Origin: Candidatus Woesearchaeota archaeon
GTDB taxonomy: Archaea; Nanobdellota; Nanobdellia; Woesearchaeales; JAHWIC01
NCBI GenBank assembly: GCA_019322485.1
Contig: JAHWIK010000027.1
Span: 9,871-73,870, forward strand
DNA: 64,000 nucleotides
Reading direction: 5' to 3'
Part shown: one piece after another, positions 19,486 to 46,389 of the stretch
Numbering within the stretch: position 1 is the stretch's first letter
Layout: each line of letters opens with the position of its first letter
Translations under genes and position numbers: made by a program
Notes under the pieces: model-generated
Told to the model about the DNA's origin: nothing
What the model saw: only the letters and a program-made list of their open reading frames with translations
Databases searched by the model: none

Positions 19486-20085
19486 ATGGGAAAAAGAGGC
19501 AAAAAAGAGGTTTCAGCAACAGATTTGACTACAGCACATACTGAATTCCTAAAGAGTTTTTTTGCTGGCAAAGGCAAATCAGAACTTCTTGATCTCTTTG
19601 TCAAACACCTCCGAGAAGAACATAAACTAAGTATCGAAGATGTAAATAGGTTGGTGGGGGGGAAGGAGAAGGACATCCTTCTGCCAATCTCTATCTTCGA
19701 TAACAAAAAGCTTAGTGCTTTGGAAGCCATTACAAAATATCTAAAGGAAAACAAAGAACTTAGTTTTCATCAAATTGGTGTTATTCTCAATAGAAACGAG
19801 AGATGCATCTGGACAACTAATAATAATTCTAAGAAAAAAATGAAAGAGGGTTTTGTGCTTAAGCCCTCAAGGTTCCTTATTCCTGCTGACATCTTCACTA
19901 ACCGCAAGCTGAGTGTGCTTGAGAACCTTGTAAAGTATATGAAAGAAAGTTTGGAGCTTAGCCTGCATGAGATTGCTGAACTGCTGCATAGGGATGATAG
20001 AACTATCTGGACTGTTTACAGCAGAGCCACGAGAAAGCAAAAGCTTTCTGGGGTTTCAAACAAGTCTGAAACAAAGAAAAAATGA
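19486..20085 (+). CDS. Tandem HTH protein, paralog of 18601..19128
   Basis: Two modules: LPISIFDNKKLSALEAITKYLKENKELSFHQIGVILNRNERCIWTT and IPADIFTNRKLSVLENLVKYMKESLELSLHEIAELLHRDDRTIWTVYSRATRK. The 3' end is closely similar at nucleotide level to the 3' end of 18601..19128. The stop overlaps the ATG of giant 3 (ATGA, 20082-20085). Confidence 0.65.
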   Translation: MGKRGKKEVSATDLTTAHTEFLKSFFAGKGKSELLDLFVKHLREEHKLSIEDVNRLVGGKEKDILLPISIFDNKKLSALEAITKYLKENKELSFHQIGVILNRNERCIWTTNNNSKKKMKEGFVLKPSRFLIPADIFTNRKLSVLENLVKYMKESLELSLHEIAELLHRDDRTIWTVYSRATRKQKLSGVSNKSETKKK

Positions 20086-31057: not shown

Positions 31058-34000
31058 ATGGTGATTTTGATTAAATTTAAACACCTTCAGATGATTGCTA
31101 TTTTCCTTTGTACCTTAATAATAACTATACCTTTCTACACCAGCTCTGTTTATGCTGCAGTGAGCGGGCATATCAAAAGGTATCCAGTTGCTTATGGAAA
31201 CAGTGACGGATTCCCAGGTGCTGCAAGACAATATGATACTATCACTGTCGAAGCACTAGCCAGGATTGATGTAGATGGGGAGTCCCAGCCAGTAAGTGCA
31301 AACCAGGTAAAGCTCTATAATGAAGGCATGGATTTTGATTACTGCGACCCAGACGCAGGCGGGTATTATTTATGTTCGCTTGAGAACTATCCTTACCCTA
31401 CTGGGGGTTTCCAAGGTATAAAAAAATTTGATATAGGCCTTTACCATGAGGGCACCAGGATTGCCGTGGGCCGTGCAAGTGTTGTTCCTGATTTCAAGCC
31501 GCCAAGAATTGAGAGTTTAGCTATAACGCTGCCTAGCGAGGACGCTGTGAAAGGTATTTCAACAACAGGTACAGTCAGCGTGGATTATATTGTCAAAGAT
31601 TATGGCTATCTAAATAGCTGGAGAGACAAGGAATGTTCTGGGATATCTAAGGTTGAATTTTATCTTAACGGATTTACTGGCGGTCCTTTCAAGACTGAAA
31701 ATATAGATACTGGAGATTGTGACTATTCTGACAGTTTCAGTTTTAATGTTCCATCTAATATCATGGTGGGCACAGTAAAGGTCTGTGCAAAAGTCTATGA
31801 CAGGTTTAACCAAGCGTCTTCTGAAGAGGAAGCAAGCCCAAACTGCGTATCCTTTGGTATAGACAGGGAAGGCCCTGGCATCCAGGGAGGCAGCTTTAGG
31901 GTTGTTGATGAAGATGACAGAGATGTCTATTTCTACCACCCTAGAGGAAAGGATGTTGATGTCGTTTTTGTGATAGATGCTGAGGATTTAAACCTAGGCC
32001 AGGGATTAGGTTCAATTAGAATTGATTTAACTACCCTTGATTCTAGTAAGTTAACCAGCAGTAACCTTAACAGCGGCCAGTGCCTAAGGGCCCCAAATTC
32101 AAACCTAACTAATTGTGTAGTATCCATTAATCTTGATTCAGAGGGTGGACTTGTTACCATAACATCTACAGACAGGTATGATAATGTTGATGAGGAGTTT
32201 CTAACAGCAATCTTCACCCTTGATGAAACCGGACCGATTGTTGCGCAGTTTGTCTCTGATAGTATTTTTATGGATGGACTCTATGCCAAGCAATATGGAA
32301 ATAATTTTAGCGCCTTGATTAGCGACGGCGGCGGGATTGGTGTTGATTCTGATGATGTAAAACTGGTTTTCTATGATGGATTTTCTTATGACAGCTCACA
32401 AGACCTCAATGTAGTAACTAATTGTACTGGCACGCCTGGAGCTACAGCATGCCTTTGGGAGGGGGTTGATTTGAGTCCTGGTTCAGATATGGCTGTCAAA
32501 GCGCGAATTGAAGGAAATGACATGCTTGAGAATGCTATTGCTGCTAATGAATTTAATGTAACTGTTGATATAACACCCCCTTTGGTCACTGAGGCTGATA
32601 TCTCAATTGAAGCGCTAGGAAGTCTTACTGGAGACTTAACTAGCGGAGGCGGGATAAATATCACAGCCAGGATAAAAGATTTCACCCAGATATTTGCTCA
32701 TGCTGATCTTTCCAGGTTTATTACAGGTGGGGAGAGGGTTCCTGCTGACAGCTGCATTAAAGTTAGTGATGAATGGGCTGATGAAACTGAATGGGTATGT
32801 TCATGGCTCCGTATGATAGAAGCCCCTGGGCCTGATTCTGGCATAGATATGGATATTGAGTTTGAGGATGTTCCTGGCAATATAGTAACAGTGACAAAAA
32901 CAGGATTAGAGCTTTATGAGCGGGTTGTGGAGGAGGTTCCTGACTATTATGACCTAGATATCAGAGAGGATTTACTTGAGCTCATTCCCATTGATATGGA
33001 GGTTATTGAAAGCCTGACTACACAATTCTATTACCAACTTGTACCTTTTGAGTTATTATATAATGGCCGATGTTCTGGAGATGAGATTGAAATTACGAAT
33101 ATCAGGCTTTTTGGGTGCGAGGGGTATGCTTATCATGCTCCACGTTCCGATGACCCCAGGAGTTATACTGGCTTTATCCAGTTTGCATTAGACACAAATG
33201 AAATTATTAATTATGATGACTATGTAGAGATAGGGGTTGATTCAACCTGCCAGATAGAATTTAATGTGAAATGCCATCAAAAATCTTACTTGCAGCCTGA
33301 GCCAGAAGAGATAAGGCTCAACATACCTATAGTGGTTGGCGATGATGTTGGAGATGACCTAACAGACGATATAGAAGATTTGAAAGACTGGGCTGAAACA
33401 GATTTCTGGGCAATGTGGGAATTCATGGACCAAGTGGTGACTATACTGAAGAATATATGCAAGATAAGGCAGCATATATACCTGATAGCAACGACAATAG
33501 CGCTTATTGGAGCTATTTTCGCTAATTGTTGTGAAAAAGGTGCTGCAGCATCTGCATACTGCTGCCCAGCTGAGATTACTTCAAGCGGGATACATATAAC
33601 ATTTACTGAACCTCAGGAGGCTGGAGCACCAGGAACTACTTTTGAAGATAAGATGAAAAAACTTTGTGCCTTTGTTGGCTGCCAGAAAAAAGACGAGCCA
33701 GGCCTTAGAGCAGAAGACCTCCCTAGCGATACTGCTGGTGCCGGTGATGATGCTCCTGACCCAACACCTAGGGAACTACTTTGCAACAAGCTTGCAAAGC
33801 TAGGCAAAAATTGGATTACTGAATATGACTTTGGTAGTTCCGGCGCTGCACAAGGTGCGGAAACTTATGTAGATGCTGCATGGTCAACATCTGTCTTACA
33901 ATTATCAATGAAAAGCCTTATTTTTGCATCAATCTGCTTATGTCTTCCAGGGATAGTATATAATGTAAGGAAATATAGAGAGCTTGTATGCTGGAAAGCT

Positions 34001-34378
34001 ATCTGTTACAGAGACCTTGTTACACTTGGTCTGCCAAAAGATGAATGCGATAAACAGTATGAATACCATATGTGTGTTTATGTCCTAGGTGATGCTATTG
34101 GATGGCTGTTGTTTAATTTTATTGGAGCTGCGATACAGGCAATAGTACAAATGTTGATTAATCCTGTTGCAGCCCTGTGGGCATGGACTCGTACTGGGCT
34201 GCTTAGGAAGTGCCATACATCTCTTTCAAAAACAGTAAAATGGAGTACATGGTGCGCTGCGTATGCAGTCTGGCAATTGCTCACAAACATCGCAGAAATT
34301 GCAGAGCTTGAAGAGACCTATGAGAATATGAAGTGGGACCATGAAACAAACATGTGCGAAGAGCTTTTAGATGATTGA
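31058..34378 (+). CDS. Family A1: signal peptide + Ig-like array + Cys-rich polytopic C-terminal domain (1106 aa)
   Basis: Signal MIAIFLCTLIITIPFYTSSVYA. Units are delimited by DFKPPRI, DREGPGI, DETGPIV and DITPPLV. C-terminus: IYLIATTIALIGAIFANCC ... ICLCLPGIVYNVRKYRELVCWKAICY ... ECDKQYEYHMCVYVLGDAIGWLLFNFIGAAIQAIV. Paralogous to 43343 and 50680. Confidence 0.8.
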   Translation: MVILIKFKHLQMIAIFLCTLIITIPFYTSSVYAAVSGHIKRYPVAYGNSDGFPGAARQYDTITVEALARIDVDGESQPVSANQVKLYNEGMDFDYCDPDAGGYYLCSLENYPYPTGGFQGIKKFDIGLYHEGTRIAVGRASVVPDFKPPRIESLAITLPSEDAVKGISTTGTVSVDYIVKDYGYLNSWRDKECSGISKVEFYLNGFTGGPFKTENIDTGDCDYSDSFSFNVPSNIMVGTVKVCAKVYDRFNQASSEEEASPNCVSFGIDREGPGIQGGSFRVVDEDDRDVYFYHPRGKDVDVVFVIDAEDLNLGQGLGSIRIDLTTLDSSKLTSSNLNSGQCLRAPNSNLTNCVVSINLDSEGGLVTITSTDRYDNVDEEFLTAIFTLDETGPIVAQFVSDSIFMDGLYAKQYGNNFSALISDGGGIGVDSDDVKLVFYDGFSYDSSQDLNVVTNCTGTPGATACLWEGVDLSPGSDMAVKARIEGNDMLENAIAANEFNVTVDITPPLVTEADISIEALGSLTGDLTSGGGINITARIKDFTQIFAHADLSRFITGGERVPADSCIKVSDEWADETEWVCSWLRMIEAPGPDSGIDMDIEFEDVPGNIVTVTKTGLELYERVVEEVPDYYDLDIREDLLELIPIDMEVIESLTTQFYYQLVPFELLYNGRCSGDEIEITNIRLFGCEGYAYHAPRSDDPRSYTGFIQFALDTNEIINYDDYVEIGVDSTCQIEFNVKCHQKSYLQPEPEEIRLNIPIVVGDDVGDDLTDDIEDLKDWAETDFWAMWEFMDQVVTILKNICKIRQHIYLIATTIALIGAIFANCCEKGAAASAYCCPAEITSSGIHITFTEPQEAGAPGTTFEDKMKKLCAFVGCQKKDEPGLRAEDLPSDTAGAGDDAPDPTPRELLCNKLAKLGKNWITEYDFGSSGAAQGAETYVDAAWSTSVLQLSMKSLIFASICLCLPGIVYNVRKYRELVCWKAICYRDLVTLGLPKDECDKQYEYHMCVYVLGDAIGWLLFNFIGAAIQAIVQMLINPVAALWAWTRTGLLRKCHTSLSKTVKWSTWCAAYAVWQLLTNIAEIAELEETYENMKWDHETNMCEELLDD

Positions 34379-34421: not shown

Positions 34422-34546
34422 TGATTTTTGCTTGATGCAAACGTTAAAGCAAAAATCATCCGCAGTGTTCCTTTATGCCTCAGCCTAAAGGAAAGCAAGC
34501 GGATGAAAATTCCTTTATACTAAGGAAGAAGGGAATTTTCAGATTT
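34422..34546 (+). repeat. Three-hairpin intergenic element, copy C
   Basis: H1 is TGATTTTTGCTT/AAGCAAAAATCA (12 bp). H2 is CATCCGC/GCGGATG with inner TTCCTTTA/TAAAGGAA. H3 is GAAAATTCC/GGAATTTTC. All arms checked by hand as exact reverse complements. Confidence 0.85.
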
Positions 34547-34580
34547 GATTGTCATAATTAACAATAAATCAAGAACAAAA

Positions 34581-36224
34581 ATGTCAGAACAATCAGCCAT
34601 ATCAAAAGTAACCTTTATCCTAGTGTTTGTTGTAATTGCTATGCTGACTGCCAGCTGGTCTGGCTTGAAGAATATGGGCAGTGCAGCAAGTATTACTGGT
34701 GCAGTAACTTATTCTGATGGAGATATAATGGTTGTAGGTTATGATGATGGTACTACCTTCACATATCAGTATGATGATGGAAATTGGTACGGCACTCATT
34801 CCGGGCCGGATGCCCCCCCAGCTAATATGGACGCAATAATAGACCGTGCTAGTGGACGTGATGACTTTGATGTTACATTGAATTCTGGTGGAGAAATAAC
34901 AAAAATGGACGATGATAGTGGAGCAGGAGATGATGGCGGCGCTGGAGGAGGAGATGACGGTGGTGGTGACGCAACAGCTGGAGCAGGAGATGCTGGAGGA
35001 GATAGTAGTGGCGCTGGAGGAGATACACCTGCTACACCAGACCCCTATGAAGTAGACACCGATGGGGATGGGTTTAGTGATGGACAGGAAGCTGAGCATC
35101 AGACTGACCCTAATAACCCGGATTCCCATGGTGAAGGTATGGGCGATATAGAAGCTATGAGTGATGATGACGAGGATGCAGAGGAGCAAGACGACGCAGC
35201 ATCCGATGCAGCTGACAGGGGATGGGGTGCAGCAGAACAAGCTTACGCAACAATGCATCCTGGTGCTGGTGACCTGGCATGGCAGGGATATTGGGAAGAT
35301 ATAGTTGGACAGGATTTGTCCTTTGTTAATGCTGAAGACCTGCCTGACTGGGCAGCTTATTCCTTAGAAGGGTATGAAGGCTATATATGCGAGCGGATGC
35401 TTGGTTTTGAAACATCAGATTATTTCGTACAGGATTATCCTGGGCATTACCAGGGGGGTGATTTCCCTTCTATTACTAATATTATCTATGCTACTGGTGA
35501 AAGGACGCATTATCCCGTACAACAATTTACAGAATGTACTGGGAATAGTGATTATTATGATGGAGAATGGTTCCCTAAGATTACTGCAACTGGTGCAACT
35601 GCCCCTACTGCTGCGGATGCACTAGGTTACTTGTATAAGTTTTCATGGTATGTTGGCCATCCTTTCAGCGAAGACCAGATTGATGAGATGCAGGGGTGGG
35701 AGATTGATGATGAAGGTCTTGACCACAATGGGAATCTGTCATATAAGATATACTTGTTTACTTATCAGTGTGATGACCCAGATGCGTTGGATGTAGACGT
35801 CCCTACACTATCTGATGGGGCAAAAGCTTATATCCTGCCTAGTGAGGCAACATCCTTTAAGGTGAACCCAGGAGCATATCATTCATATACTCATTCATTT
35901 TATGACAAAGCATATATTTATAAGATTTGCATTAGATTTGACAATGACTATGGATGGTCACATGATGGAGATATTGAGGGTTCATGGCCTCCAGAATGTA
36001 AACCAAGCGATATAGATGGTGATGGTGGGTTGGTAGTTGAGTCAACTTCAACTCTTAGCATGCCTCCTGGATTTAATTTCTTCCCGCCAGATACAACCAG
36101 CGCGGGAAGCACTGATGACGGGGTGACATCTACAACAACAAGCGGCAGTGATGGTGACCCTCAGGACTGCACTAGTTGTCCTGCCGGGTTGCAGGGCGGC
36201 GGCGATGTTTGGGAAACTGGATAA
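34581..36224 (+). CDS. Family B1: N-anchored acidic protein with TSP type-3-like Ca-binding repeat and shared C-terminal domain
   Basis: The track start at 34545 is a TTG inside the repeat element, and the first ATG is 34581 (MSEQSAISKVTFILVFVVIAMLTA...). D/G-rich region; DTDGDGFSDGQEAEHQTDPNNPDS resembles a thrombospondin type 3 / bacterial Ca-binding repeat. The C-terminal GYLYKFSWYV and YIYKICIRFDND match B2. Confidence 0.75.
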   Translation: MSEQSAISKVTFILVFVVIAMLTASWSGLKNMGSAASITGAVTYSDGDIMVVGYDDGTTFTYQYDDGNWYGTHSGPDAPPANMDAIIDRASGRDDFDVTLNSGGEITKMDDDSGAGDDGGAGGGDDGGGDATAGAGDAGGDSSGAGGDTPATPDPYEVDTDGDGFSDGQEAEHQTDPNNPDSHGEGMGDIEAMSDDDEDAEEQDDAASDAADRGWGAAEQAYATMHPGAGDLAWQGYWEDIVGQDLSFVNAEDLPDWAAYSLEGYEGYICERMLGFETSDYFVQDYPGHYQGGDFPSITNIIYATGERTHYPVQQFTECTGNSDYYDGEWFPKITATGATAPTAADALGYLYKFSWYVGHPFSEDQIDEMQGWEIDDEGLDHNGNLSYKIYLFTYQCDDPDALDVDVPTLSDGAKAYILPSEATSFKVNPGAYHSYTHSFYDKAYIYKICIRFDNDYGWSHDGDIEGSWPPECKPSDIDGDGGLVVESTSTLSMPPGFNFFPPDTTSAGSTDDGVTSTTTSGSDGDPQDCTSCPAGLQGGGDVWETG

Positions 36225-36242: not shown

Positions 36243-38609
36243 ATGAAAAAAAGAGGTGTAGCCTTTAAAAAAGGCCAGATAACTGTATTTATAATAATTG
36301 GGATTCTCTTATTAGTTTCTATTTCTACAGTGGTATATTTTAGAGGGAGGGCAGTCAAGGATATACCTATAGAAGAATTTGTTGAGGTGCCAGAGGTTGC
36401 AGCAGAGCTTGTGCCTATTGATTTGTTTGTGAAATCATGCATTAGAAGAAAGATTGAGGGGCCTGATGGTCCTCTTAAAGGCGCCCTTAGGATAGCTGAA
36501 GAGCATGGCGGCTATATCTACCAGGAAGAATTACAGCCCGATTATATGTCCCCAACAGAAGGCAATGCTATTGAGTATCTGCCTAACTCTGGTATACTAA
36601 TACCCTACTGGTATTATATGAAAAGCCCGAATTATTGCCAAAGTAACTGCAAATTTGACACAATGATGCCGCCATTATGCAAGCCTTCACCAAGAGAGTG
36701 TGTCAATGAAGGCCAGGGCTCAATTGAAGAGCAGCTGGAGCGGTATTTATTAGAAAATATTGATGAATGCTTGGCTGGTTTTGCGGAAACAGAGAAACAG
36801 GGCTTTGAGGTGACTGAGCTTGGTGAGCCCCAGGCTAATGTGATAATAAGGGACAGGGATGTGCTAGTCAGGCTTTACTATCCCTTAAGCATAGAAAAGG
36901 AAGGAGCTACTGGCGGGATAGATGATTTTGTAGTGACAATAAGAAGCGACATAAAAGAGCTGTATACAATGGCTTATGAGATGGCTAAATATGACATGAA
37001 TAACTGCTTTATTGGCAAACATATACAAAACCATATTTCATACTCTGCAGGGCTAGGGGCTGGTAAACTGCCTCCAATCTATGAGCTTACTATAGGAGAG
37101 CCTTCCATGCAAATATGGTCTTTAGAGAATGTCAAGCAGCTTTTGAAATATAGAATAGTTGGAGCTGTTCAGTTAATTGGCGTGTTTTACACAAAAGGGT
37201 TTACCTGGCCAACATACCATGACCCAAATGACCCATATTACTCAACAAGACAGGGAATCCTTGACAATCAGGTTTTCAGGCCATTTGATACCTTCCATGA
37301 TGCTACTGTGATTTTTAATTACCTTCCGTGGTGGGATATCTATCTTGACATAAAACCAAGCAGTGGCGGTGTACTAATGCCTTCTGACTTTGGCATGGAT
37401 GCAGGAAGTTTCGCTACATTAATAGGTACAATATCACAGACAAAGACCTACAAATTCTCTTATCAATACTCATTCCCTACAGTGGTTGATATAAGAAAAC
37501 TGGATTATAGGAATGATGAGCATGTTTTCAGGTTTGCGCTTGAGGCAAATGTCAGGGCTAACAGATGCTTCAGTCCAAACATTACCATGACTTACACCAG
37601 GGATGCCTTTGCCACAGGATTATGCGATTATGTACAGGCTAGAAGGAATGCCACTATTAATGTAAAGGAGATTACGCGCGAATTTGGAAATTATGTCCAA
37701 CATCCAGTGGATGAGGTTAAGGTTACTTTCTTTGCAGGCACTACCTGCTTGCTAGGATTCACTGATGAAAATGGTATTATTGAAGCCAAATATCCAGCTG
37801 CTTATGGCGCGCAAATGAAATTTGCTAAAAGAGGCTATGCTGAAAAGATTGTAGATGTCTCTGATATTAGTGATGGTGCAACAGTCATCATAAATAAACT
37901 AAGAACATACAATGCAACAGTAAAGCACTTTAAGATGAACCGCGACAGAAGCTTGCCTCAATCAGGGGTAGACCTTGAGCCAGGGGAAACTGTGGTAATC
38001 ATGCTAAAGAAAGCTGACTACCCAGAAATACCGAGCCAAGTAGTGTCATTTGATGGCAGCTCTGAAACAAATATGACCTTAGATCTGATTGAGGGTAATT
38101 ATGAGATTAGCGCGCAGTATTTTAAGCGCAGCCCCTTTAGTTTACCTCCAATGTGCATCCATATATGTAATCATGGAACATTTTCACAGCCAAGCACTGA
38201 TTCATGGGATGCTGTAAACAACGTGCCAACAAGCAAGTGCTTTGATGATGATTGTACTCCCGGAGGGGATTGTTATGGATATAGCACTGAACTTATTGAT
38301 TTAGGTGCTTATGTCGAATGTTGCAATCAGGCCAATGAATGGATTCCTGAAGATCCAGTTAATATTTCACTCATGGGCGGGGCTAAATTTGACCAAGATT
38401 TAGGTTACTGGACACTAACTGAAGGGCATTATTATGACCCAAGGGGCACAATAGAATTTAATGTGCTAAGCCAACCAGACCCTGACTGCGTTTCGGCTGA
38501 TGATTGTGTTGTACCTGACTGCATAGGCTATAGTGATGACCTTAGTGCTTTGGGTACCTATTATGAAACACACTGGAGTACACTTAGGCCAAGTTTAGTT
38601 TTTGGATAA
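36243..38609 (+). CDS. Family C1: 788-aa protein with class III (type IV pilin-like) signal-peptide-like N-terminus
   Basis: MKKRGVAFKKGQITVFIIIGILLLVSISTVVYF. The shared core FVKSCIRRKIEG...GGYIYQ...PTEGNAIEY...IPYWYYM... aligns with C2 and C3. Confidence 0.8.
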   Translation: MKKRGVAFKKGQITVFIIIGILLLVSISTVVYFRGRAVKDIPIEEFVEVPEVAAELVPIDLFVKSCIRRKIEGPDGPLKGALRIAEEHGGYIYQEELQPDYMSPTEGNAIEYLPNSGILIPYWYYMKSPNYCQSNCKFDTMMPPLCKPSPRECVNEGQGSIEEQLERYLLENIDECLAGFAETEKQGFEVTELGEPQANVIIRDRDVLVRLYYPLSIEKEGATGGIDDFVVTIRSDIKELYTMAYEMAKYDMNNCFIGKHIQNHISYSAGLGAGKLPPIYELTIGEPSMQIWSLENVKQLLKYRIVGAVQLIGVFYTKGFTWPTYHDPNDPYYSTRQGILDNQVFRPFDTFHDATVIFNYLPWWDIYLDIKPSSGGVLMPSDFGMDAGSFATLIGTISQTKTYKFSYQYSFPTVVDIRKLDYRNDEHVFRFALEANVRANRCFSPNITMTYTRDAFATGLCDYVQARRNATINVKEITREFGNYVQHPVDEVKVTFFAGTTCLLGFTDENGIIEAKYPAAYGAQMKFAKRGYAEKIVDVSDISDGATVIINKLRTYNATVKHFKMNRDRSLPQSGVDLEPGETVVIMLKKADYPEIPSQVVSFDGSSETNMTLDLIEGNYEISAQYFKRSPFSLPPMCIHICNHGTFSQPSTDSWDAVNNVPTSKCFDDDCTPGGDCYGYSTELIDLGAYVECCNQANEWIPEDPVNISLMGGAKFDQDLGYWTLTEGHYYDPRGTIEFNVLSQPDPDCVSADDCVVPDCIGYSDDLSALGTYYETHWSTLRPSLVFG

Positions 38610-38613
38610 AGAG

Positions 38614-39423
38614 ATGACATTGTTAAACAAAAAAAGGCTAATGGAAGTAAAGAAATCCTTGTTCTTTAAGAGCTTTAAAGATATTGACTTAAAGTTATTG
38701 TATGCAATTCTAATAGATGCAGGGTATTATCTCCTGGTATTTGGCATTATAATGTTAACCTATTCCATGCTGCAATACAACTTTACAGCATTAGATAATG
38801 TAATGCCTGTGTTAGAGAAGATTCAAACCCTTTCTATTGATGGCCCTGGCTTCAAGGCAGAGGCAGAAGAGGCTGTTGGGATGCTGCGCATGATGTTTAT
38901 GAAAGGGGTATTGATAGCAGTTGGAGCAGTTATTGTTTTGGTTCTTGTATCAGCGGTTTTAAGAAGCCTGGTTTGGAGCCAAATCCTGAGGATAAAGGTA
39001 GATAAACACTATCTAAAAAGGTTTTTCCTGCTCAAGGTTTTGTGGAGCCTTGCATGGCTGCTAGTAATTGCGCTGGGTTTTTTGTTGTTTAAGCCTAAAG
39101 TCAGTGTATGGATTTTGATAGTAACGTCTGTGATTTATGTTCATTTTACAGTAATCCTGCACTCCTTGTTTGATAAAAGAAAAGCAAATTTGGGGCTAAT
39201 AAAGAGCGCATTCTTAATAGGACTAAAAAAGATTTATTTGCTCATTGTGCCATATATCGTGGCTGGGGCTGTTTTTTATTTCCTTGGCTCATCCTGCTAT
39301 CTGGCATACCTGCTGAAAAAAAAGGTTGTTTTAATGAGCATTTATGCTATCTTGTTCATAGTATTTTCAGGATGGGTAAGGCTGTACATATCAATGATAC
39401 TTAAAAAGGCAGAAAAAGCTTAA
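38614..39423 (+). CDS. Family D1: polytopic membrane protein (~269 aa)
   Basis: The track start at 38602 is TTG, and the first ATG is 38614, 5 nt after the C1 stop. It has 5-6 hydrophobic helices. LIKSAFLIGLKKIYLLIVPYIV aligns with ILRKALMLGAKKAHIILLVYLI of D2. Confidence 0.7.
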   Translation: MTLLNKKRLMEVKKSLFFKSFKDIDLKLLYAILIDAGYYLLVFGIIMLTYSMLQYNFTALDNVMPVLEKIQTLSIDGPGFKAEAEEAVGMLRMMFMKGVLIAVGAVIVLVLVSAVLRSLVWSQILRIKVDKHYLKRFFLLKVLWSLAWLLVIALGFLLFKPKVSVWILIVTSVIYVHFTVILHSLFDKRKANLGLIKSAFLIGLKKIYLLIVPYIVAGAVFYFLGSSCYLAYLLKKKVVLMSIYAILFIVFSGWVRLYISMILKKAEKA

Positions 39424-40668
39424 TTATCCTCTAGGGCCAAGCTGCTGTAGTTCGTACAATTTTTCAAGCTGGTAGCAGTTCTGCTTAAGGAATGGCTGGG
39501 TTAGCTTATCACAAAGTTCGAATCTGCCAGCTGTTGCAAAGACCATATAACAATTATCGCGTATAGTGTCCTTTATAATCTTGGCGCACATGCCTGCGTC
39601 ATTAAGTTCCTTGGCAATACTCCTAATGCAGTTGTCTTCTGCTCGCTGATCCATAATGTCATCACAATATTGCTCATCAGTTGATGCCTGAGCAACCCTG
39701 CCATAACAGTCATCCCTGAATACCCTGTCTGTGATATCAGCGCATTGCTGGCCAGCTTTTGATGGGTTTGTGAATGCAGTTTGTTCTATATTGCTTAGCT
39801 TTTCCCATGTAGTCATAGTAGGGGTAATCGGTGCTGGTGGCGGCGGTGGAGGTGGTTTTGGGCAGTCATCTGAACATGTTGTATAAGTCTCTCCTGTCTC
39901 ACACTTCCCGTTACCGCAGCAGGGGATTATTGGCCTGGAAACACACTCATTTAACGCAAGAAAATCTGTAGTGCAAGGGTCGCCATCCTCACAAATAAGG
40001 TCTCCCTCCCTTTCTTCCTCTGTTGGAACCACAAATTCTTCCTCTCTAGGAATCTCTTCTTCCTCCTCAGGCAAGGTTGGCGGTGGGGTTGGTGCCTCAG
40101 CAACACTAAATGTTTCTACTGCAGTTGCAAGCTTTCCATTGTATCTTGCCAAAACCTTTAACTGGTAGTTTGCTGGCGCTAGGCTAGAAGGAATCCTTAT
40201 CTTGGCTTTTGTTGGAACCCCTGTTTCAATTGCTGCTGTTTCTTCCTTGTGTTGGACTACATTTTCATTTGCATCCATTATTAAATATCTCAGTGAAACA
40301 TCCTGCCTGCCAGCAGCTCCCAGGTCAAGCAGCTCTACATCAAATTCTAAATCATCACCCTGCATAGCTTCTGTTGTGGTTATGGTTGTCTCAAGGCCAA
40401 GAAGTTCTGCTGGTTCTCCTTTCATAAAGTTAAACGCCAGAATGCCTCCAAGGACAACAACAATAAAAACAGCAGTTAGCGCAATAATTGTTGTTGGAGA
40501 TATATGGACTGCAGGCTTGGCTGCCTGCGGCTGTGCATAAGCCTGCCTGATGGCTGCGTCAATTGCAGGCTGCTGATAGCCGTATTTAAGCAGCGCTGCT
40601 CGTATAGAATTGACATTATAGCCTGCTTTAAGCTGCTGCCTAATATAAGAAGCTAAATCCTGAGCCAT
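39424..40668 (-). CDS. Membrane-anchored Cys-repeat protein (414 aa)
   Basis: N-terminal LKAGYNVNSIRAALLKYGYQQPAIDAAI helix pair, TM TTIIALTAVFIVVVLGGILAF and a beta-sandwich-like region. Then a Glu/Pro linker, the CCGNGKCETGETYTTCSDDC motif, a poly-Pro run, and about 6 repeats of C-x(2)-I-x-D-x(3)-(R/E)D-x-CY-like units. Its stop codon abuts the D1 stop (TAATTA at 39421-39426). Confidence 0.75.
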   Translation of the reverse strand: MAQDLASYIRQQLKAGYNVNSIRAALLKYGYQQPAIDAAIRQAYAQPQAAKPAVHISPTTIIALTAVFIVVVLGGILAFNFMKGEPAELLGLETTITTTEAMQGDDLEFDVELLDLGAAGRQDVSLRYLIMDANENVVQHKEETAAIETGVPTKAKIRIPSSLAPANYQLKVLARYNGKLATAVETFSVAEAPTPPPTLPEEEEEIPREEEFVVPTEEEREGDLICEDGDPCTTDFLALNECVSRPIIPCCGNGKCETGETYTTCSDDCPKPPPPPPPAPITPTMTTWEKLSNIEQTAFTNPSKAGQQCADITDRVFRDDCYGRVAQASTDEQYCDDIMDQRAEDNCIRSIAKELNDAGMCAKIIKDTIRDNCYMVFATAGRFELCDKLTQPFLKQNCYQLEKLYELQQLGPRG

Positions 40669-41083: not shown

Positions 41084-41248
41084 ATGAGTGTACAGATACG
41101 AATTACAGTCTCTAAAGAGATAAACGAACTTCTCGAAAAGGTAGCTAAGAAACTCGGCAAAAAGAAGTCAATGCTAGCTAGAGAGCTGATGGAGCAGAAG
41201 CTATACGACTTAGAATTGATTCAAAAAAAATTTGGTGAGCTAAAATAA
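41084..41248 (+). CDS. Ribbon-helix-helix (CopG-like) protein, 54 aa (not in the ORF track)
   Basis: Hand translation: MSVQIRITVSKEINELLEKVAKKLGKKKSMLARELMEQKLYDLELIQKKFGELK*. It has a beta-strand (IRITVS) plus two helices. The stop TAA (41246-41248) overlaps the ATG (41248) of C2 as TAATG. Confidence 0.7.
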   Translation: MSVQIRITVSKEINELLEKVAKKLGKKKSMLARELMEQKLYDLELIQKKFGELK

Positions 41249-43341
41249 TGAATAAGAGAATGAACAAAAAATCCCAGATTACTTTGTTTATTATAATCGG
41301 AATAGTTATGCTAACCTCAGTTGGCACGTATATATACTTTAGAGCCTCTATCAGGAGGGCAGAGATAATGCCTGAACTTGTAGCTGCTGAGGAAGTGCCA
41401 AGGGCATTCAACCCAATACAGGTGTTCATAGAAAGCTGTGTGAGCAAGGTAGGTAAGGATGGGATGGAACTGCTTGGCAGCCAAGGGGGCTACATAAACA
41501 TTGAAAGAGCCGGTATTGGACCAGGCATAACACCTACTGAAGGAAATGCTGTAGCCTTTTCAAGAGGTTCTGGGTTAAATGTTCCCTACTGGTTCTATTT
41601 GGAGAGCGACAATAAATGCATTGGCAATTGTGTGTTTAGTACGCAAAAACCAGAACTGTACAAAGGCAGGCTGCTGTCAATCGAGGGGCAGCTTGAGGAG
41701 TATGTTAATGCCAATCTAAAGGAATGCTTTAATGAATTTAAGGTATTGAAAACAAGGGGCTACATAATTGAGGAGCTTGGAGATATTAATACAAAGGTTA
41801 GTGTAACAGAAGAAGAGGTTGTTGTTTTGGTAGAATACCCAATCAAGGCTAGGGCTCTTGATGCAGTGCTTGAGCTTGAAAGGTTTCCAGTGGTAATACA
41901 AGTTAATTTAAAGGACATTTATGAATTGGCTATGCTGATAACAAACCTCGAGGCTGAATACAGATATCTTGAAAAGGACGCGCTAAACCTCATAACCGGG
42001 TTTTCTGGCAAGGATATGGAAAAGCTGGCGCCAATGTCAGATGTTGGCCTGGAGTTTGGCAACAGACTTTACTGGAGAAGAGGCGCAATTATAGACAATC
42101 TAAAGGGCATGCTTTCAGCCTATATCCCTTTGCTGCAGGTAGAGGGTACGCGCAATTACAGGCCATTGAGCTTTCCTGGTGAAAGCCTGAAGGAATCATT
42201 ATACAATCAACAGATGCTGATTCCAAACAGTGAGCTGTATAACCTTGATGTTTACTTCACTTATCTTGGATGGGAGCCATGGTTTGACCTTAATTGCAGG
42301 GGGGAGATATGCCAGCCAGAATCTATTTCAAGCAGCATAATAACCCTGATGGGCTTGCAGCGATACAACTTTGTCTATGACCTTAGTTTCCCTGTGATGG
42401 TAGAGATACATGACCCAGACGCATTTAAGGGCCTAGGTTATGACTTTAGGTTTATGCTTGAGGCAAATATCCGAAATAACGAGCCTATGCCAGAGGTATT
42501 CAGCCCACTACAGGTTATTGAGCCACAGGTTTCTTTGCTGTGTGATTTAGAAAAGAGAAACAGCGGCTATATGGATATAGATATAACTGATATGATGACT
42601 GCTGAGCCAGTTGATGATGTGAGGGTTTCTTTCAGCTGCGCTGAGGAGAGCTGTTTTATGGGTATTGCGGAGGGAGGCAGCTTAGTAGAAAGATTCCCTG
42701 TTTGCCTTGGAGGGATTGTTTCCTTCCTTAAAGAAGGCTACCTGGGTTATTCTCAATTCCTGAACACAAAGCTTGACGAAAAAGCTGAGGTTAAGGTCAC
42801 CCTTAAACCATTGGTTGAGAAGCAGTTTATGATTAAGAAAAAGAGGGTTGTTAAAAATCCAGAAGGGTGGGTTTTCATTGATACTCCGTTTACACTTGGA
42901 AGAAAGGAAAGCGCATTCATAAGTCTTGTAAGAAAACCCGGCCCAGGCGAGGATGCATACCAGGCTGCTGCTGAATACAGCGGCGGTGTTGGAGAGATAA
43001 CCCTGGCGGATGGAGACTATGAGATTGATATACAGCTTTACACAAATGAAACAATTATTATTCCAGAAGAGGAGCGCTGCGAAGAGGTTGCGTTTATTGA
43101 GCAGTGCTATACAATTGAAGAGCTTAAGTTTAATGAAACCTTTCCAAATGGCGGCTTGAAGCTGAATCATACATTTACAGCTGATGACCTTAAGAGTGAT
43201 ATGATAACGTTTTATGTTGTAAATACCTACATAACAGGCATTCCTGAAGCTAACAGGGTTGTTGAAGACCTTGAGCAAATAGAAAAGGTAGAGGAATACT
43301 CTACAGCCCATGCTAATAGATTAAAACCAACAGTTGAATAA
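41248..43341 (+). CDS. Family C2: 697-aa protein with class III signal-peptide-like N-terminus
   Basis: MNKRMNKKSQITLFIIIGIVMLTSVGTYIYF. The core FIESCVSKVGKDGMELLGSQGGYINIE...PTEGNAVAF...VPYWFYL... is paralogous to C1 and C3. Confidence 0.8.
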   Translation: MNKRMNKKSQITLFIIIGIVMLTSVGTYIYFRASIRRAEIMPELVAAEEVPRAFNPIQVFIESCVSKVGKDGMELLGSQGGYINIERAGIGPGITPTEGNAVAFSRGSGLNVPYWFYLESDNKCIGNCVFSTQKPELYKGRLLSIEGQLEEYVNANLKECFNEFKVLKTRGYIIEELGDINTKVSVTEEEVVVLVEYPIKARALDAVLELERFPVVIQVNLKDIYELAMLITNLEAEYRYLEKDALNLITGFSGKDMEKLAPMSDVGLEFGNRLYWRRGAIIDNLKGMLSAYIPLLQVEGTRNYRPLSFPGESLKESLYNQQMLIPNSELYNLDVYFTYLGWEPWFDLNCRGEICQPESISSSIITLMGLQRYNFVYDLSFPVMVEIHDPDAFKGLGYDFRFMLEANIRNNEPMPEVFSPLQVIEPQVSLLCDLEKRNSGYMDIDITDMMTAEPVDDVRVSFSCAEESCFMGIAEGGSLVERFPVCLGGIVSFLKEGYLGYSQFLNTKLDEKAEVKVTLKPLVEKQFMIKKKRVVKNPEGWVFIDTPFTLGRKESAFISLVRKPGPGEDAYQAAAEYSGGVGEITLADGDYEIDIQLYTNETIIIPEEERCEEVAFIEQCYTIEELKFNETFPNGGLKLNHTFTADDLKSDMITFYVVNTYITGIPEANRVVEDLEQIEKVEEYSTAHANRLKPTVE

Positions 43342-43342
43342 G

Positions 43343-46300
43343 ATGTCAATCAAGCAATTAAAGTTAATCGCATTGTTCATGAGCAGCTTAATGATAATGA
43401 TACCTATGTATTCTGCTTCTATTCTTGCATATACCGGCATTAAGAGGATTGAGGCTAGCGGCCAGGATGGCATCGAGGGCTATATTAGAAATGAGGATGC
43501 TATTGACTTCAGGGTAATTGCTAATATTGATGATGATCTTGATGGGGTAACATCAGACCAGGTTAAGATTCCTGAGGCTGCTGTGGAGTTTAGCAGCTGC
43601 ATGCCTGGTTTGGAAGGCTATGAATGCGAACTCAGGCTTCCTGATACAGGAACCTGGACATACAGAGACCTAAACAGGATTCCAGTTCTATTATATGACG
43701 AAGGTGACAACCAGGTTGGCGGGCGCACTGCCACACTTGTTGTGGACAATAATGCCCCTGATGTCAGGTTTTTTAGTATCCTGCCTAAGCTGACTTCTTC
43801 GGGAGATATGACATTTACTTACTCTGTCGAGGATTATGCTTATAGAAAAGGTGATTCAAGCAGATGTGTCGGGCTTGACAGGATTGTATTTTATACCTTT
43901 GATTCATCCTTTGTCGAGCAGGTCAACATTGATACTGATGATTGCGATGTTTCAGGCAGTGTTTCAGTTGACAACAGTATCCTGCCTGAGGGAGGCAATG
44001 TGATTTATGTCAAGGCTGTTGACAAATTTGAGCAGGAATCAGAGCCTGAAGAGGATTCAATTGTTATTGACAGGACAGCGCCAGTAATAGGCAGCTTGAA
44101 GATTGTTGATACCAATGGAAACAGCATTGATTATATCGGCAGTGATACAATAAAAGGCGAGGTTATTGTTAACATAAGCGGGCCTGGCCTGGATACCAAC
44201 AGCGTGGCAGGTGATTTCTCTGAGCTGAACTATGAAAGGGGGAATTACAAAAACCTCAGAGCAGTTATATGCAATGTATTGCATGACACAGCCCTATGCA
44301 GCTGGTCTGTTGAGCTTAAGCTTGACAGCGGCGGTATGAAGTATATGACTATAAATGCATCTGATAATGTTGGGAATAAAGCAACAGTAAGCTTGTCCAA
44401 GGGATTTGTGTTTGATGATGCAGGGCCGGTTATAAACGGTATAACCACAGATAAAATACATGGCGGGATTAGCTATGCCTCTTCGCAGGACAATACATTT
44501 GTGGCTTCTATATCTGAGCCAGGTGTTGGAGTTGATGCAAGCAACGTATTCCTGCACATAGGATCTTTGTTCCTGCCAGCTGACAGCTGCGAGGCTGATG
44601 CCTGCTATTGGTATGAGGTTGGTATTGGCCAAGAGGGTAGTGTAAGAGTCTGGATTGGTGATGACACAACTGACAGGCTTGGAAATGCTGCAGAGGAATT
44701 TTCCACTGATATAATTGTTGATGCAACTAAGCCTGCATTAACTTCCCTGAATGTGAAAACAATCGGTGGTGTGCTGCCTGCTTACAGGTATGTAAAGACC
44801 TTTGACAGCCTGGAGATAACAGCTGAGATTGTTGAAGCAAATGTCATCACAGAAGCTTATGGTGATTTCTCATCAATAATTGACGGTGCTGATAAGGTTC
44901 TTGCTGATGAATGCACTAAAACAGACGGCACCTATACCTGCAAATGGACAACTGATCCAATAGATGTTGAGGGCTATATTGATAGTTCCATTGACTTTAG
45001 CTTTATTGATATATCAGGTAATGTCCTTACAGCAAGTGCTCCTGTTGAGGTTTACGAGCTAATCGATACTGAACTTGATTATTGGAAACATGATGTGAGT
45101 TGCTCGCCAGAGCTGATTGACAGGCAGACAACAGCACTTGTAAACCACAGGATTTACTGCCATATCGGCCTTTCAGGAAATGCTGAAACAATTGACATAA
45201 ATCTTGAGGGATGCGACGGACCTACTGAATATTTAGAAGAGGCGCCTGTGCTGTTTAATGATGAGATTGGCAGTACTGACCCTTACCTTAAGTTTACGCT
45301 CAGGGCTGAAGAGCTGACTATTAGTGAGCTGGAGTTTGACTGCAAGCTGAGGATTGTTTCAAAGATAAGTGAGCGCATAACAAGGTATCCAGAGGTGGAG
45401 AATGTTTCCATCCAAATCGGATTCTACAACCTGCCTCTTGGGGAGTATGGCGCTGGTGTTGACAAAAAGATCGAAGATGCCAAAGAGTTTGCGTGGTATA
45501 TTGGTGACTGGGTTGAGGATGTCAATGAGATACTGCACTATGGCCAGGCTATCTGCAATATGGCTAATTCGCTTATAAAGCTCTTTGGTGGTTTATCAGC
45601 AATTGGAAGTGCACTTTCCCTGCTTGGGACAACATCCAAAACAGCAGATGAGGTCAGGAAAGAGGTGCAGCGTGCACAACAAGGTGTGAGTGGACTGACT
45701 AAGGAGCAATGGGCTAAGAGCGAGGGTTTCAATAAATTCTGCAAATTCTTCTCATGCAGGCTTTACTATGATGATGCCTTCGAAGGTCCAACTGCCGAAG
45801 CAATAGGCAAGTGGCAGCGTACGGTTCTTGAGCGAGCTAACTGGGTATCTACTGGCGGCGGAAAGATTCGTGCAATAGAGGCATGGTCCAATAAAGAGAA
45901 CCGCAACAAGATGAACATCTACACTGGCAAGCTTAACCCCAAGGAAAGCATTGTGATTAGCACCCTGACATTATGCCTGCCTGGAATTGTTTACAATCTC
46001 AATAAGCTAAGGCAGATTCAATGCATGTATGTTGACTGCATGCAGACTTATGCTACACAAGGGCTTCCTTTGAAAGCCTGCGAAGACCAGAAGGAATACG
46101 CAACCTGCAAGTATTGGTGGGGGGAGATATTCCAGTTACTTCCATTTACTGGCTTGTGGAATGAGATGATTGGTATGGTTAAAAAAGCATTGTCAAGTCC
46201 ATTTGGTTTCATTGACATAGTTTTAGGCTATGTGTGCAGACCTCTGTATGAAAAAGACAAAATGGGAGGGCCAGCTGCTATATGCCTGATAAATGATATC

Positions 46301-46387: not shown

Positions 46388-46389
46388 AA

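What the first reader, a model, noticed from the sequence alone, without database searches (positions are those of the whole stretch)
33370..34378. Family A C-terminal domain: conserved Cys-rich, multi-helix membrane module with invariant C-(L/V)-(P/S)-G-(I/V)-(V)-Y-N core
A1 has ICLCLPGIVYNVRKYRELVCWKAICY...ECDKQYEYHMCVYVLG (33935-), A2 has LTLCLPGIVYNLNKLRQIQCMYVDC...ACEDQKEYATCKYWWG (45971-), and A3 has FQCLCVSGVYNRLQLIKNILTAMQNCL...VCKELFSQYVCSLVWY (53923-). In each protein this core is preceded by a TM helix and a variable loop, and followed by further hydrophobic helices (e.g. AIGWLLFNFIGAAIQAIVQMLINPVAALWAW). A large external Ig array attached to a conserved polytopic, Cys-studded membrane domain is not a simple anchor. 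It could be a pore, a scaffold or an oligomerisation platform.
Basis: seen in the sequence. Interest (0 to 1): 0.7.

Follow-up and report, generated by a model that had tools for sequence, protein, structure and literature searches.

The report
Disulfide-rich helical domain of DPANN surface proteins
The conserved cysteine-rich C-terminal module is real and defines a large, undescribed protein-domain family found so far only in tiny symbiotic (DPANN) archaea, but it looks like a disulfide-stapled soluble helical bundle outside the cell, not a multi-pass membrane domain.

Summary
The module exists at the stated coordinates. A1 (31058-34378) and A2 (43334-46387) are full-length paralogues. Their last ~320-350 residues belong to a family with 1384 cluster representatives (E<=1e-3), typically ~1000-1100 aa proteins with the module at the C-terminus. 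Every organism-labelled genomic locus comes from Woesearchaeota or Nanoarchaeota genome bins. A3 shares only the ~65-residue core, with marginal support. Pfam, NCBIfam, PDB sequences and Foldseek (PDB, viral) gave no match.

A confident AlphaFold2 model (pLDDT 81.5) is all-alpha. The helices are amphipathic and about 20% charged. Their insertion energies match the soluble ectodomain, not the true membrane helices encoded in the same operon, so the polytopic-membrane reading is not supported.

Eleven cysteines are near-invariant. The module's cysteine count is odd in 126 of 130 members. A twelfth cysteine co-occurs with an extra loop cysteine (Fisher 4e-27). This implies disulfides plus one unpaired cysteine.

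The genes sit in a conserved, translationally coupled operon with pilin-like proteins. My best reading is an extracytoplasmic docking or oligomerisation hub that holds a secreted, probably Ig-like, domain array on the cell. The function is inferred, not shown.

The parts
31058..34378 (+). A1 gene (1106 aa; public databases use the start at 31091, giving 1095 aa = P0010). Sec-type signal peptide, beta-rich ectodomain, C-terminal module.
31058..31156 (+). A1 predicted cleavable signal peptide (…TSSVYA|AVSG), with a short h-region containing Pro.
   Evidence: sequence; N-termini of family members have median KD 2.18
33320..34375 (+). A1 C-terminal Cys-rich all-alpha module (aa 755-1106). This is the finding itself. 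Conserved Cys codons start at 33458, 33665, 33680, 33941, 33989, 34004, 34046, 34073, 34211, 34253 and 34355.
   Evidence: HMM match aa 758-1105; Cys map
33920..34090 (+). A1 core (…KSLIFASICLCLPGIVYNVRKYRELVCWKAICY…CDKQYEYHMCVYVLG). Across A2 orthologues the equivalent stretch is the most conserved part of the protein.
43334..46387 (+). A2 gene (1017 aa), the typical family member and the orthologue of all 12 genome loci found. Its start overlaps the stop of the upstream B gene by 8 nt.
45425..46384 (+). A2 C-terminal module (aa 698-1017). AF2 model: pLDDT 81.5, nine main helices including one of 66 residues. Conserved Cys codons start at 45554, 45740, 45755, 45974, 46022, 46037, 46079, 46106, 46235, 46283 and 46373.
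46022..46024 (+). A2 Cys897 (HMM column 224, in K-x-R-Q-I-x-C). Candidate for the single unpaired cysteine (inference).
   Evidence: A family has an odd Cys count; the A3 family lacks this Cys and has an even count
50680..56475 (+). A3 gene (1931 aa), a distant relative. The module is split by a ~420-aa Cys-rich insert and followed by an ~800-aa extension.
52531..52674 (+). A3 counterpart of the module's first helix and first conserved Cys (…DWLLYDAVD…EYLGIGCVIAFGL…). Support is weak.
   Evidence: P 0.062, correct register
53872..54078 (+). A3 core (…DPFKDHIATFQCLCVSGVYNRL…NCL…GVCKELFSQYVC…).
41248..43341 (+). B-family gene (697 aa) with an archaeal class III (prepilin-like) N-terminus, KKSQITLFIIIGIVML. 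It lies immediately upstream of A2 in the window, and a B gene precedes the A2 orthologue in all 10 loci that include the upstream region.
48788..50683 (+). B-family paralogue (631 aa). Its stop overlaps the A3 start by 4 nt.
36243..38609 (+). B-family paralogue (788 aa) in the A1 copy of the cassette.
46384..48786 (+). X gene (800 aa, N-terminal signal or anchor). Its start overlaps the A2 stop. Orthologues follow A2 orthologues in other genomes and have odd Cys counts.
34545..36224 (+). Gene downstream of A1 (559 aa, N-terminal TM helix, TSP3-type repeat).
38602..39423 (+). Polytopic membrane protein (273 aa, ~6 strongly hydrophobic helices) closing the A1 cassette. Homologues occur in the cassettes of other genomes.
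56495..57319 (+). Polytopic membrane protein (274 aa, ~5 TM helices) after A3.
39424..40668 (-). Divergently transcribed Cys-rich single-TM protein (414 aa). It is conserved upstream of the B-A2 pair in 7 loci.

Best explanation
The C-terminal ~320-350 residues of A1 and A2 are an undescribed, lineage-specific protein domain. I read it as a compact or elongated all-alpha bundle of amphipathic helices that lies outside the cytoplasmic membrane. It is locked by about five conserved disulfides, with more in members that carry extra loop cysteines, and it keeps one conserved unpaired cysteine.

The proteins are exported by a cleavable Sec signal peptide and have no convincing membrane anchor of their own. 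The module's core is the most conserved part of the protein. I therefore infer that it is the docking and oligomerisation hub that fixes the variable, probably Ig-like, ectodomain to the cell surface.

It would do this by binding the co-translated operon partners, which do have real membrane helices. These are the pilin-like B proteins, the downstream X protein and the small polytopic protein. The free cysteine may form an intermolecular disulfide.

Shown: domain homology, family size and distribution, absence of known relatives, helical amphipathic character, cysteine parity and co-occurrence, conserved synteny.
Inferred: extracytoplasmic location, disulfide pairing, the docking/oligomerisation role, the identity of the free cysteine.
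For: - Homology and family size.
- Architecture: members are ~1000-1100 aa with the module at the extreme C-terminus.
- Structure: AF2 with a 79-sequence alignment gives pLDDT 81.5 and pTM 0.76, all-alpha, with a 66-residue first helix.
- Amphipathic helices: periodicity 95-105 degrees for seven of the nine helices, mean KD about 0, about 20% charged.
- Not TM-like by two scales, with internal positive and negative controls.
- Conserved charged positions (E258, D/N270, K/R277, D/N282) and prolines (P264, P283) lie inside the 'hydrophobic' stretch.
- Eleven Cys columns are >=98% conserved.
- Cys count in the module is odd in 126/130. In full-length mature proteins it is odd in 98/113 (p 4e-16).
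- Cys299 co-occurs with an odd number of variable-loop Cys: 78/79 against 6/51, Fisher 4e-27.
- Acidic C-terminal tails: 30% D+E against 12% K+R.
- The core is the most conserved region: 53% identity against 31-34% for the ectodomain and 20% for the loop.
- Conserved B-A2-(small)-X-TM6-B'-A3 synteny in Woesearchaeota/Nanoarchaeota genomes, with overlapping start and stop codons.
- B proteins always have even Cys counts. A2 orthologues are odd in 9/10 and X orthologues in 6/6.
Against: - I could not obtain model coordinates, so no Cys-Cys distance or helix packing was inspected.
- No oligomer or A-B complex prediction could be run.
- In A1 itself three segments are markedly more hydrophobic (KD 2.03, 1.90, 1.83; Hessa sum +0.3 for the first). 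A single membrane-embedded helix in A1 is not excluded.
- 2-12% of family members have a first segment near the TM threshold.
- The TM analysis used simple window sums with scale values recalled from the literature, not a trained predictor.
- Many DPANN archaea live in anoxic water, where extracellular disulfide formation needs explaining.
- No assembly ATPase or platform for pilin-like proteins was seen in the loci examined.
- Function is inferred from architecture and synteny only.
Confidence: 0.5

Rival explanations
1. The module is a membrane-embedded (polytopic or re-entrant) helical domain that anchors the domain array directly in the archaeal membrane and may form a channel or platform there.
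For: - Three moderately hydrophobic segments recur in every member. 23-32% of members exceed KD 1.6 in each.
- A1 has a 31-residue uncharged stretch and a first segment with a Hessa sum of +0.3.
- The proteins have no other anchor after signal-peptide cleavage.
- The top non-significant Foldseek hits include ABC-exporter TM domains.
Against: - Median insertion energies of +5.6 to +9.9 kcal/mol equal those of the soluble ectodomain.
- Conserved charges and prolines lie inside the segments.
- The helices are strongly amphipathic.
- With segments 1 and 2 spanning the membrane, the invariant C126/C131 and the variable Cys-rich loop would be cytoplasmic. Yet loop cysteines co-vary with C299 as if disulfide-bonded.
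- The tails are acidic.
- Foldseek E-values are all >=0.8 and TM-scores <=0.26.
Confidence: 0.17
2. The module is the stalk of a lattice or spike, analogous to the Sulfolobales S-layer stalk protein SlaB or to tetrabrachion. The long first helix would form a parallel coiled coil in trimers or tetramers, presenting the beta-rich arms outward as part of the cell envelope.
For: - Beta-rich N-terminal domains plus a C-terminal helical region with a 66-residue helix whose hydrophobic periodicity is 105 degrees, close to a heptad.
- The operon is conserved in every related genome examined, like an envelope component.
Against: - There is no C-terminal TM helix, which SlaB has.
- The module is a multi-helix bundle rather than one long helix.
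- Nanoarchaeota S-layer proteins are reported as MSTP-like beta-sandwich proteins (bioRxiv 10.1101/2024.05.28.596244).
- There is no sequence or fold similarity to SlaB.
Confidence: 0.15
3. The module is a weapon or bridge-builder. A soluble helical bundle would rearrange on contact and insert into the host cell's membrane, acting as a pore, fusogen or cytoplasmic bridge of the DPANN symbiont.
For: - DPANN archaea depend on host contact.
- Moderately hydrophobic helices are shielded in an amphipathic bundle, and the module is lineage-specific.
- Three paralogues in one genome suggest diversification.
Against: - Five or more conserved disulfides would hinder the unfolding such toxins need.
- No hydrophobic hairpin has a favourable insertion energy.
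- Foldseek finds no match to colicin, Cry, Bcl-2-like or fusogen folds.
- The core is the most conserved part and the putative binding array the more variable part, which fits a cell-proximal docking role better.
Confidence: 0.08
4. The resemblance of A3 to A1/A2 is convergent or compositional. Only A1 and A2 carry the module.
For: - A1 against A3 gives no BLAST alignment at the motif.
- The full-module HMM scores A3 at only 8.4 bits.
- hhalign probability is only 36%.
- Most A3-family members have C-[LI]-A-I-S-Q-I instead of C-x-P-G-I.
Against: - The same register is recovered by BLAST (A2 against A3), HMM and two hhalign runs.
- Four A3-family loci carry an exact C-L-P-G-I.
- A second, co-linear match covers the first helix and its Cys.
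- Both kinds of gene follow a B-family gene with overlapping stop and start codons.
Confidence: 0.25

Closest known systems
SlaB, the membrane-anchoring stalk of the Sulfolobales S-layer
   Same: Sec-exported archaeal surface protein with N-terminal beta-sandwich domains followed by a long C-terminal alpha-helical region that mediates oligomerisation and attachment (PMC10903991).
   Different: SlaB has a single 132-aa helix plus a genuine C-terminal TM helix. Here there is a nine-helix, 11-Cys bundle with no TM helix. There is no sequence or fold similarity.
PilY1/PilC-type non-pilin adhesins of type IV filament systems
   Same: A large Sec-exported protein without its own anchor, encoded next to genes with prepilin-type N-termini. 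A conserved C-terminal domain would dock on the pilin-like partners, and a variable N-terminal part would bind targets. The logic is inferred. An archaeal PilY-like adhesin is mentioned in bioRxiv 10.64898/2026.04.22.720090.
   Different: The PilY1 C-terminal domain is a beta-propeller, whereas this one is all-alpha and disulfide-rich. The B partners are 630-790 aa, far larger than pilins. No assembly ATPase or platform gene is in the neighbourhood.
Sulfolobus 'bindosome' proteins (large globular proteins with class III signal peptides); recalled from established knowledge, not tested here
   Same: Large extracytoplasmic proteins carrying pilin-type signal peptides that assemble near the membrane rather than into long filaments. 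This is a possible model for the B family.
   Different: Bindosome subunits are solute-binding proteins. The B family has no detectable domain, and nothing resembling the A module is part of that system.
Helical-bundle pore formers (colicin pore domain, Cry toxin domain I)
   Same: Soluble bundles of amphipathic helices that include more hydrophobic helices.
   Different: There is no buried hydrophobic hairpin with favourable insertion energy. The bundle has many locking disulfides. Foldseek finds no match.

Membership tests
Any curated protein family (Pfam-A, NCBIfam) | Score above the family's curated threshold | tested here: not met
   No hit on A1 or A2 over the module. None of 14 modules hits any Pfam family convincingly (best E 0.0095, to an unrelated beta-propeller).
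Any protein of known structure | Significant sequence-profile or fold match | tested here: not met
   PDB profile search: best E 0.026, to a designed coiled coil. Foldseek against PDB: best E 0.8, TM <=0.26. Foldseek against BFVD: best E 0.34.
Polytopic membrane domain | Two or more conserved segments of ~19-23 residues hydrophobic enough for translocon insertion | tested here: not met
   Median best KD about 1.4 and median Hessa sums of +5.6 to +9.9 kcal/mol. Fractions with a sum below 0 are 0.02, 0, 0 and 0. Operon TM helices score -0.5 to -4.5. These are simple scales, not a trained predictor.
Polytopic membrane domain | Loops alternate between compartments; basic residues on the cytoplasmic side | tested here: not met
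   Loop Cys and C299 co-occur as a disulfide pair would. The C-terminal tail is acidic.
SlaB-type S-layer stalk | C-terminal transmembrane helix after the helical stalk | tested here: not met
   The sequence after the last helix is a 3-55 residue acidic or polar tail.
SlaB-type S-layer stalk | Trimeric coiled coil | not testable with these tools
   No multimer prediction was available. There is only a 66-residue helix with near-heptad periodicity.
Archaeosortase substrates (PGF-CTERM and relatives) | C-terminal sorting motif followed by a TM helix and a basic tail | tested here: not met
   No C-terminal TM helix. The tails are acidic, and 19 of 155 end in G-G-[LIF]-F without a following helix.
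PilY1-like tip adhesin | C-terminal beta-propeller domain | tested here: not met
   The AF2 model is entirely helical.
PilY1-like tip adhesin | Encoded with (minor) pilin genes | tested here: met
   B-family genes with K-K-x-Q-x-T-I-F-I-I-x-G-I N-termini directly precede A2 and A3 in the window and precede the A2 orthologue in all 10 loci that include the upstream region. The class III signal peptide is assigned by motif only.
Type IV filament locus | Assembly ATPase and platform protein nearby | tested here: not met
   None in the window or among the locus neighbours scanned. Only part of each genome was seen.
Bacterial/archaeal Ig-like domain arrays (for the N-terminal part) | Repeated Ig-like domains above family thresholds | tested here: inconclusive
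   Big_3_3 at E 0.0074, below threshold, for A2. Big_13 at 27.6 bits (cut-off 27) for A3. A ~105-aa periodic VDxxxP / DxxGN motif is present. No PDB sequence hit. The ectodomain structure was not predicted.

The most novel reading that the evidence does not exclude
The conserved operon (B pilin-like, A, X, small polytopic protein, B', A3) would encode a previously unrecognised surface machine specific to Woesearchaeota/Nanoarchaeota-type DPANN archaea, for example their host-attachment organelle. In it the new-fold Cys-rich module would be a covalent hub. Its single unpaired cysteine (candidate: column 224, A2 Cys897) would form an intermolecular disulfide that links the A-protein ectodomain arms to each other or to the X protein on a base of pilin-like subunits.
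Probability: 0.2. Interest if true: 0.85.

Novelty: new variant of a known kind. Interest (0 to 1): 0.58.

Why it matters
DPANN archaea are abundant, mostly uncultured and depend on physical contact with hosts, yet the proteins that build their surface and contact sites are almost unknown outside a few cultured lineages. This analysis defines three things:
- a large domain family (over 1100 clusters at E<=1e-10) with no relative in Pfam, NCBIfam, the PDB or the viral structure library BFVD;
- a confident all-alpha fold prediction;
- a precise, testable biochemical signature of five conserved disulfides plus one free cysteine.

The family sits in an operon conserved in all 12 related genome loci recovered. 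That gives structural biologists and metaproteomics or cryo-ET groups a concrete target for how these cells hold and present their large surface proteins. It also corrects a tempting mis-annotation as a multi-pass membrane protein.

Tried and rejected
- The word-indexed homology search with the A1 module alone found nothing. A1 is a divergent member, and a 14-sequence profile was needed.
- An exact-sequence contig look-up of A1 with either start codon found nothing.
- The first AF2 run, with 7 sequences, was unusable (pLDDT 43.7). An alignment of 123 full-length proteins was too large to submit.
- Foldseek against PDB and BFVD, a PDB profile search, and Pfam and NCBIfam scans of the module gave no informative hits. 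Pfam and PDB profile searches of the B family, and a PDB sequence search of the A2 ectodomain, also found nothing.
- A viral-contig scan found no relative, so a phage or virus origin is rejected.
- The genome loci for A3 orthologues (L005, L007) ended before the core.
- The S-layer-protein reading was lowered, because Nanoarchaeota S-layer proteins are reported as MSTP-like beta-sandwich proteins.
- Metal or haem binding by the cysteines was considered from reading the sequences. No CxxCH motif was seen, and parity and co-occurrence point to disulfides. It is not formally excluded.
- Four literature searches found no description of this family.


Full report
**Context.** The window is a cellular genome, not a mobile element. 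It encodes methionyl-tRNA synthetase (28903-30972), a ParA/MinD ATPase, CBS-domain and nucleotidyltransferase proteins. Several proteins start with K-K-G-Q-I-T-V-F-I-I-I-G, the archaeal class III (prepilin-like) signal-peptide pattern. All 12 related loci recovered from species-representative genomes come from genome bins. Eight are titled Candidatus Woesearchaeota, Nanoarchaeota or Nanoarchaeia, and four carry the title 'uncultured Methanosarcinales archaeon'. A close homologue is named 'hypothetical protein [Nanoarchaeota archaeon]'. The organism is therefore a DPANN archaeon.

**Observation.** A1 (31058-34378, 1106 aa), A2 (43334-46387, 1017 aa) and A3 (50680-56475, 1931 aa) contain the quoted strings. 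A relaxed form of the motif occurs only three times in all six frames.
- A1 and A2 align over their full length (26% identity, E 3.5e-65).
- The A1 module spans aa 755-1106 (window 33320-34375), so the finding's coordinates are essentially right.
- No competing ORF longer than 70 aa lies on the opposite strand of the A1 gene.

**Family.** The A1 module alone retrieved nothing in the word-indexed search. A back-translated pattern scan found 12 genome loci encoding ~1020-1110-aa proteins with 25-31 cysteines. A 14-sequence profile found five metagenomic proteins. An exhaustive HMMER search of 1.84 billion cluster representatives found 1384 hits at E<=1e-3, 1127 at E<=1e-10 and 450 at E<=1e-30. 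Almost all listed hits are 1000-1100 aa with the module at the extreme C-terminus. One hit, P0010, is A1 itself with the start at Met12. No viral contig carries the module.

No hit came from any of these:
- Pfam;
- NCBIfam;
- a PDB profile search.

**Conservation.** Among A2 orthologues the core is the most conserved stretch:

| Region | Mean pairwise identity |
|---|---|
| Core | 53% |
| Ectodomain | 31-34% |
| Loop between the first helix and the core | 20% |

**A3.** Support for A3 is marginal but consistent.
- BLAST of A2 against A3 gives E 0.013 in the right register.
- A core-only HMM from 130 A-family members scores A3 at 13.4 bits and two A3 relatives at 16.8-17.9 bits. These are well separated from noise in a 157-sequence set.
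- With 25 further A3-family loci from metagenomes, profile-profile comparison gives P 3.8e-4, probability 36%, over 66 columns.
- A second, co-linear but weak match (P 0.062) covers the first helix and its cysteine.
- Four A3-family loci carry an exact C-L-P-G-I.
- A3, like A2, directly follows a B-family gene with overlapping stop and start codons.

I judge A3 a probable distant paralogue in which the variable loop has grown to ~420 residues and ~800 residues were added after the module. The claim of a 'C-terminal domain' does not hold for A3.

**Structure.** With seven sequences AF2 failed (pLDDT 43.7). With 79 sequences it gave pLDDT 81.5 and pTM 0.76. The model is entirely helical:
- a 66-residue first helix;
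- helices at residues 71-97, 99-108, 121-141, 184-211, 215-236, 239-256, 258-275 and 281-309;
- one disordered loop at 149-163.

Foldseek found nothing significant in the PDB (best E 0.8, TM <=0.26) or in BFVD (best E 0.34). I could not access the coordinates, so helix packing and Cys-Cys distances were not inspected.

**Membrane or not.** I tested that in four ways.

1. Kyte-Doolittle 19-residue windows. The three candidate segments have a median best score of about 1.4, and only 23-32% of members reach 1.6. For the family's own signal peptides the median is 2.18 and 92% reach 1.6.
2. Summed Hessa-type insertion energies (scale values recalled from the literature). Module segments have medians of +5.6 to +9.9 kcal/mol. 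That is indistinguishable from the best window of the soluble ectodomain (+8.6). N-terminal and polytopic helices encoded in the same operon score -0.5 to -4.5.
3. Character of the predicted helices. Their family-mean hydropathy is about 0, they are about 20% charged, and most have a strong 95-105 degree moment, so they are amphipathic. The 'hydrophobic' stretch after the core contains conserved E258, D/N270, K/R277 and D/N282, plus prolines P264 and P283.
4. C-terminal tails. They are acidic (30% D+E against 12% K+R), opposite to the usual basic cytoplasmic tail.

A1 is atypical. One membrane-embedded helix in A1 cannot be excluded.

**Cysteines.** Eleven columns are Cys in >=98% of members, and a twelfth (column 299) in 61%.
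- The number of Cys in the module is odd in 126 of 130 members (11, 13, 15, 17 or 19).
- In full-length mature proteins it is odd in 98 of 113 (binomial p 4e-16).
- Column-299 Cys is present almost exactly when the variable loop carries an odd number of Cys: 78/79 against 6/51 (Fisher 4e-27).

The simplest reading is that cysteines are gained and lost in disulfide pairs. Column 299 would bond to a loop cysteine, so the loop and the later turn touch in one oxidising compartment. The eleven near-invariant cysteines would form five disulfides plus one free thiol.

The A3 family lacks the column-224 Cys and has even counts (10 of 11 complete members, and A3 itself with 56). This makes column 224 (A2 Cys897, A1 Cys978) the candidate free cysteine. 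That step is inference.

Cys-count parity across the operon families:

| Family | Cys count |
|---|---|
| B proteins | Always even |
| A2 orthologues | Odd in 9 of 10 |
| Orthologues of the downstream X gene | Odd in 6 of 6 |

**Genomic setting.** In related genomes the order is: Cys-rich single-TM gene on the minus strand; B (~700 aa); A2-like (~1050 aa); in five loci a small N-terminally anchored gene; X; small polytopic protein; B' (~630 aa); A3-like (at least ~1350 aa). Identities to the window's proteins are 19-45%. In the window B/A2, A2/X and B'/A3 overlap by 4-8 nt, which suggests translational coupling. A1 heads a partial second copy: A1, a TSP3-repeat protein, B'' and a polytopic protein. 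Neighbours outside the cassette are housekeeping or unrelated genes, and none is a filament-assembly ATPase or platform.

**Mechanism.** A proteins have short, proline-containing, cleavable-looking signal peptides and no anchor. Their most conserved part is the module core and their most variable part is a surface loop. I therefore propose that the module is an extracytoplasmic, disulfide-stapled docking and oligomerisation hub. It would hold the ectodomain array on the cell by binding operon partners that do have membrane helices, possibly with a covalent link through the free cysteine. I put this at about 0.5.

Rivals:

| Rival reading | Confidence |
|---|---|
| True membrane-embedded domain | 0.17 |
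| SlaB/tetrabrachion-like coiled-coil stalk of an envelope lattice | 0.15 |
| Host-membrane-inserting device | 0.08 |

The stalk reading is weakened by the missing TM helix and by the report that Nanoarchaeota S-layer proteins are MSTP-like. The host-membrane reading is disfavoured by the locking disulfides and the lack of a hydrophobic hairpin.

**Comparison with known systems.** In logic the module resembles the docking domain of PilY1-type non-pilin adhesins, or the stalk of SlaB. It fails the defining structural features of both: a beta-propeller for PilY1, and a terminal TM helix for SlaB. It belongs to no curated family. I found no paper describing it.

**Verdict.** The sequence observation is real and far beyond chance for A1 and A2, and probable for A3. 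It is a new domain family of unknown function in a conserved DPANN surface operon, with a sharp, testable disulfide and free-thiol signature.

Noticed in passing
Family members outside the window (e.g. L004:5417-6028, L007:10001-10489, L012:3-434; P0001, P0014, P0087, P0118): About 12% of family members (19 of 155) end with an acidic linker followed by G-G-[L/I/F]-F(-G/S), for example …EESGGLFG. There is no following TM helix. From memory, this resembles the acidic tail plus GLF(G/D) end of ribosomal stalk P1/aP1 proteins. A1 and A2 in the window lack it. Its role (partner-binding peptide or sorting signal) is unexplained.
   Followed up: partly
window 46384-48786 and orthologues L001:11220-14093, L005:8241-10343, L006:7739-11272, L007:10493-13099, L008:2250-5015, L009:8681-10960: The X protein encoded just after A2 has an odd cysteine count in 6 of 6 orthologues. 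B-family proteins are always even. X is a candidate partner for the module's unpaired cysteine. In the window's own copy, one of its 9 Cys lies in the N-terminal hydrophobic segment.
   Followed up: partly
L003:10980-11450, L004:6028-6420, L005:7603-7995, L008:1077-1457, L011:11047-11424: In five related genomes a small (125-156 aa) N-terminally anchored gene follows the A2 orthologue. In four of the five it overlaps the stop codon. Three of the five are mutually 42-54% identical. The window has no such gene; there A2 runs straight into the X gene.
   Followed up: partly
window 6816-12749, 14659-18600, 20082-26732 (also 3053-5656, 12746-13360): This is a second set of giant paralogous surface proteins (1313-2216 aa) sharing blocks of 45-73% identity. 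One has CBM96, disaggregatase-repeat and TGF-beta-propeptide-like hits. Two of them (6816-12749, 20082-26732) have strongly hydrophobic C-terminal TM helices, unlike family A.
   Followed up: no
window 18601-19128 and 19486-20085: Two paralogous small proteins (38% identity) sit between the giant surface-protein genes. The first has a C-terminal sigma-70 region 4 / HTH domain, which is unusual for an archaeon. They may be local regulators.
   Followed up: no
window 62736-63296 and 63296-63865: Tandem duplicate genes, 68% identical over 186 aa, with no Pfam hit.
   Followed up: no
window 13418-14254: An eight-helix membrane protein with a SpoIIM-family hit (E 4e-10) lies among the surface-protein genes.
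   Followed up: no
L033:1249-1608, L034:4001-4363, L035:2453-2812, L037:4001-4363: A subgroup of the A3 family carries C-L-P-G-I (L035: C-L-T-G-I) at the core, like the A family. Most A3 relatives have C-[LI]-A-I-S-Q-I. The conserved Cys sits at either of two positions two residues apart, or at both (C-L-C, as in A1 and A3).
   Followed up: partly
L001, L005, L006, L011 (record titles): Four loci with clear orthologues of this DPANN operon come from genome bins titled 'uncultured Methanosarcinales archaeon'. These may be placeholder or wrong taxonomic labels on third-party assemblies, or contamination from host-associated bins. I did not resolve which.
   Followed up: no
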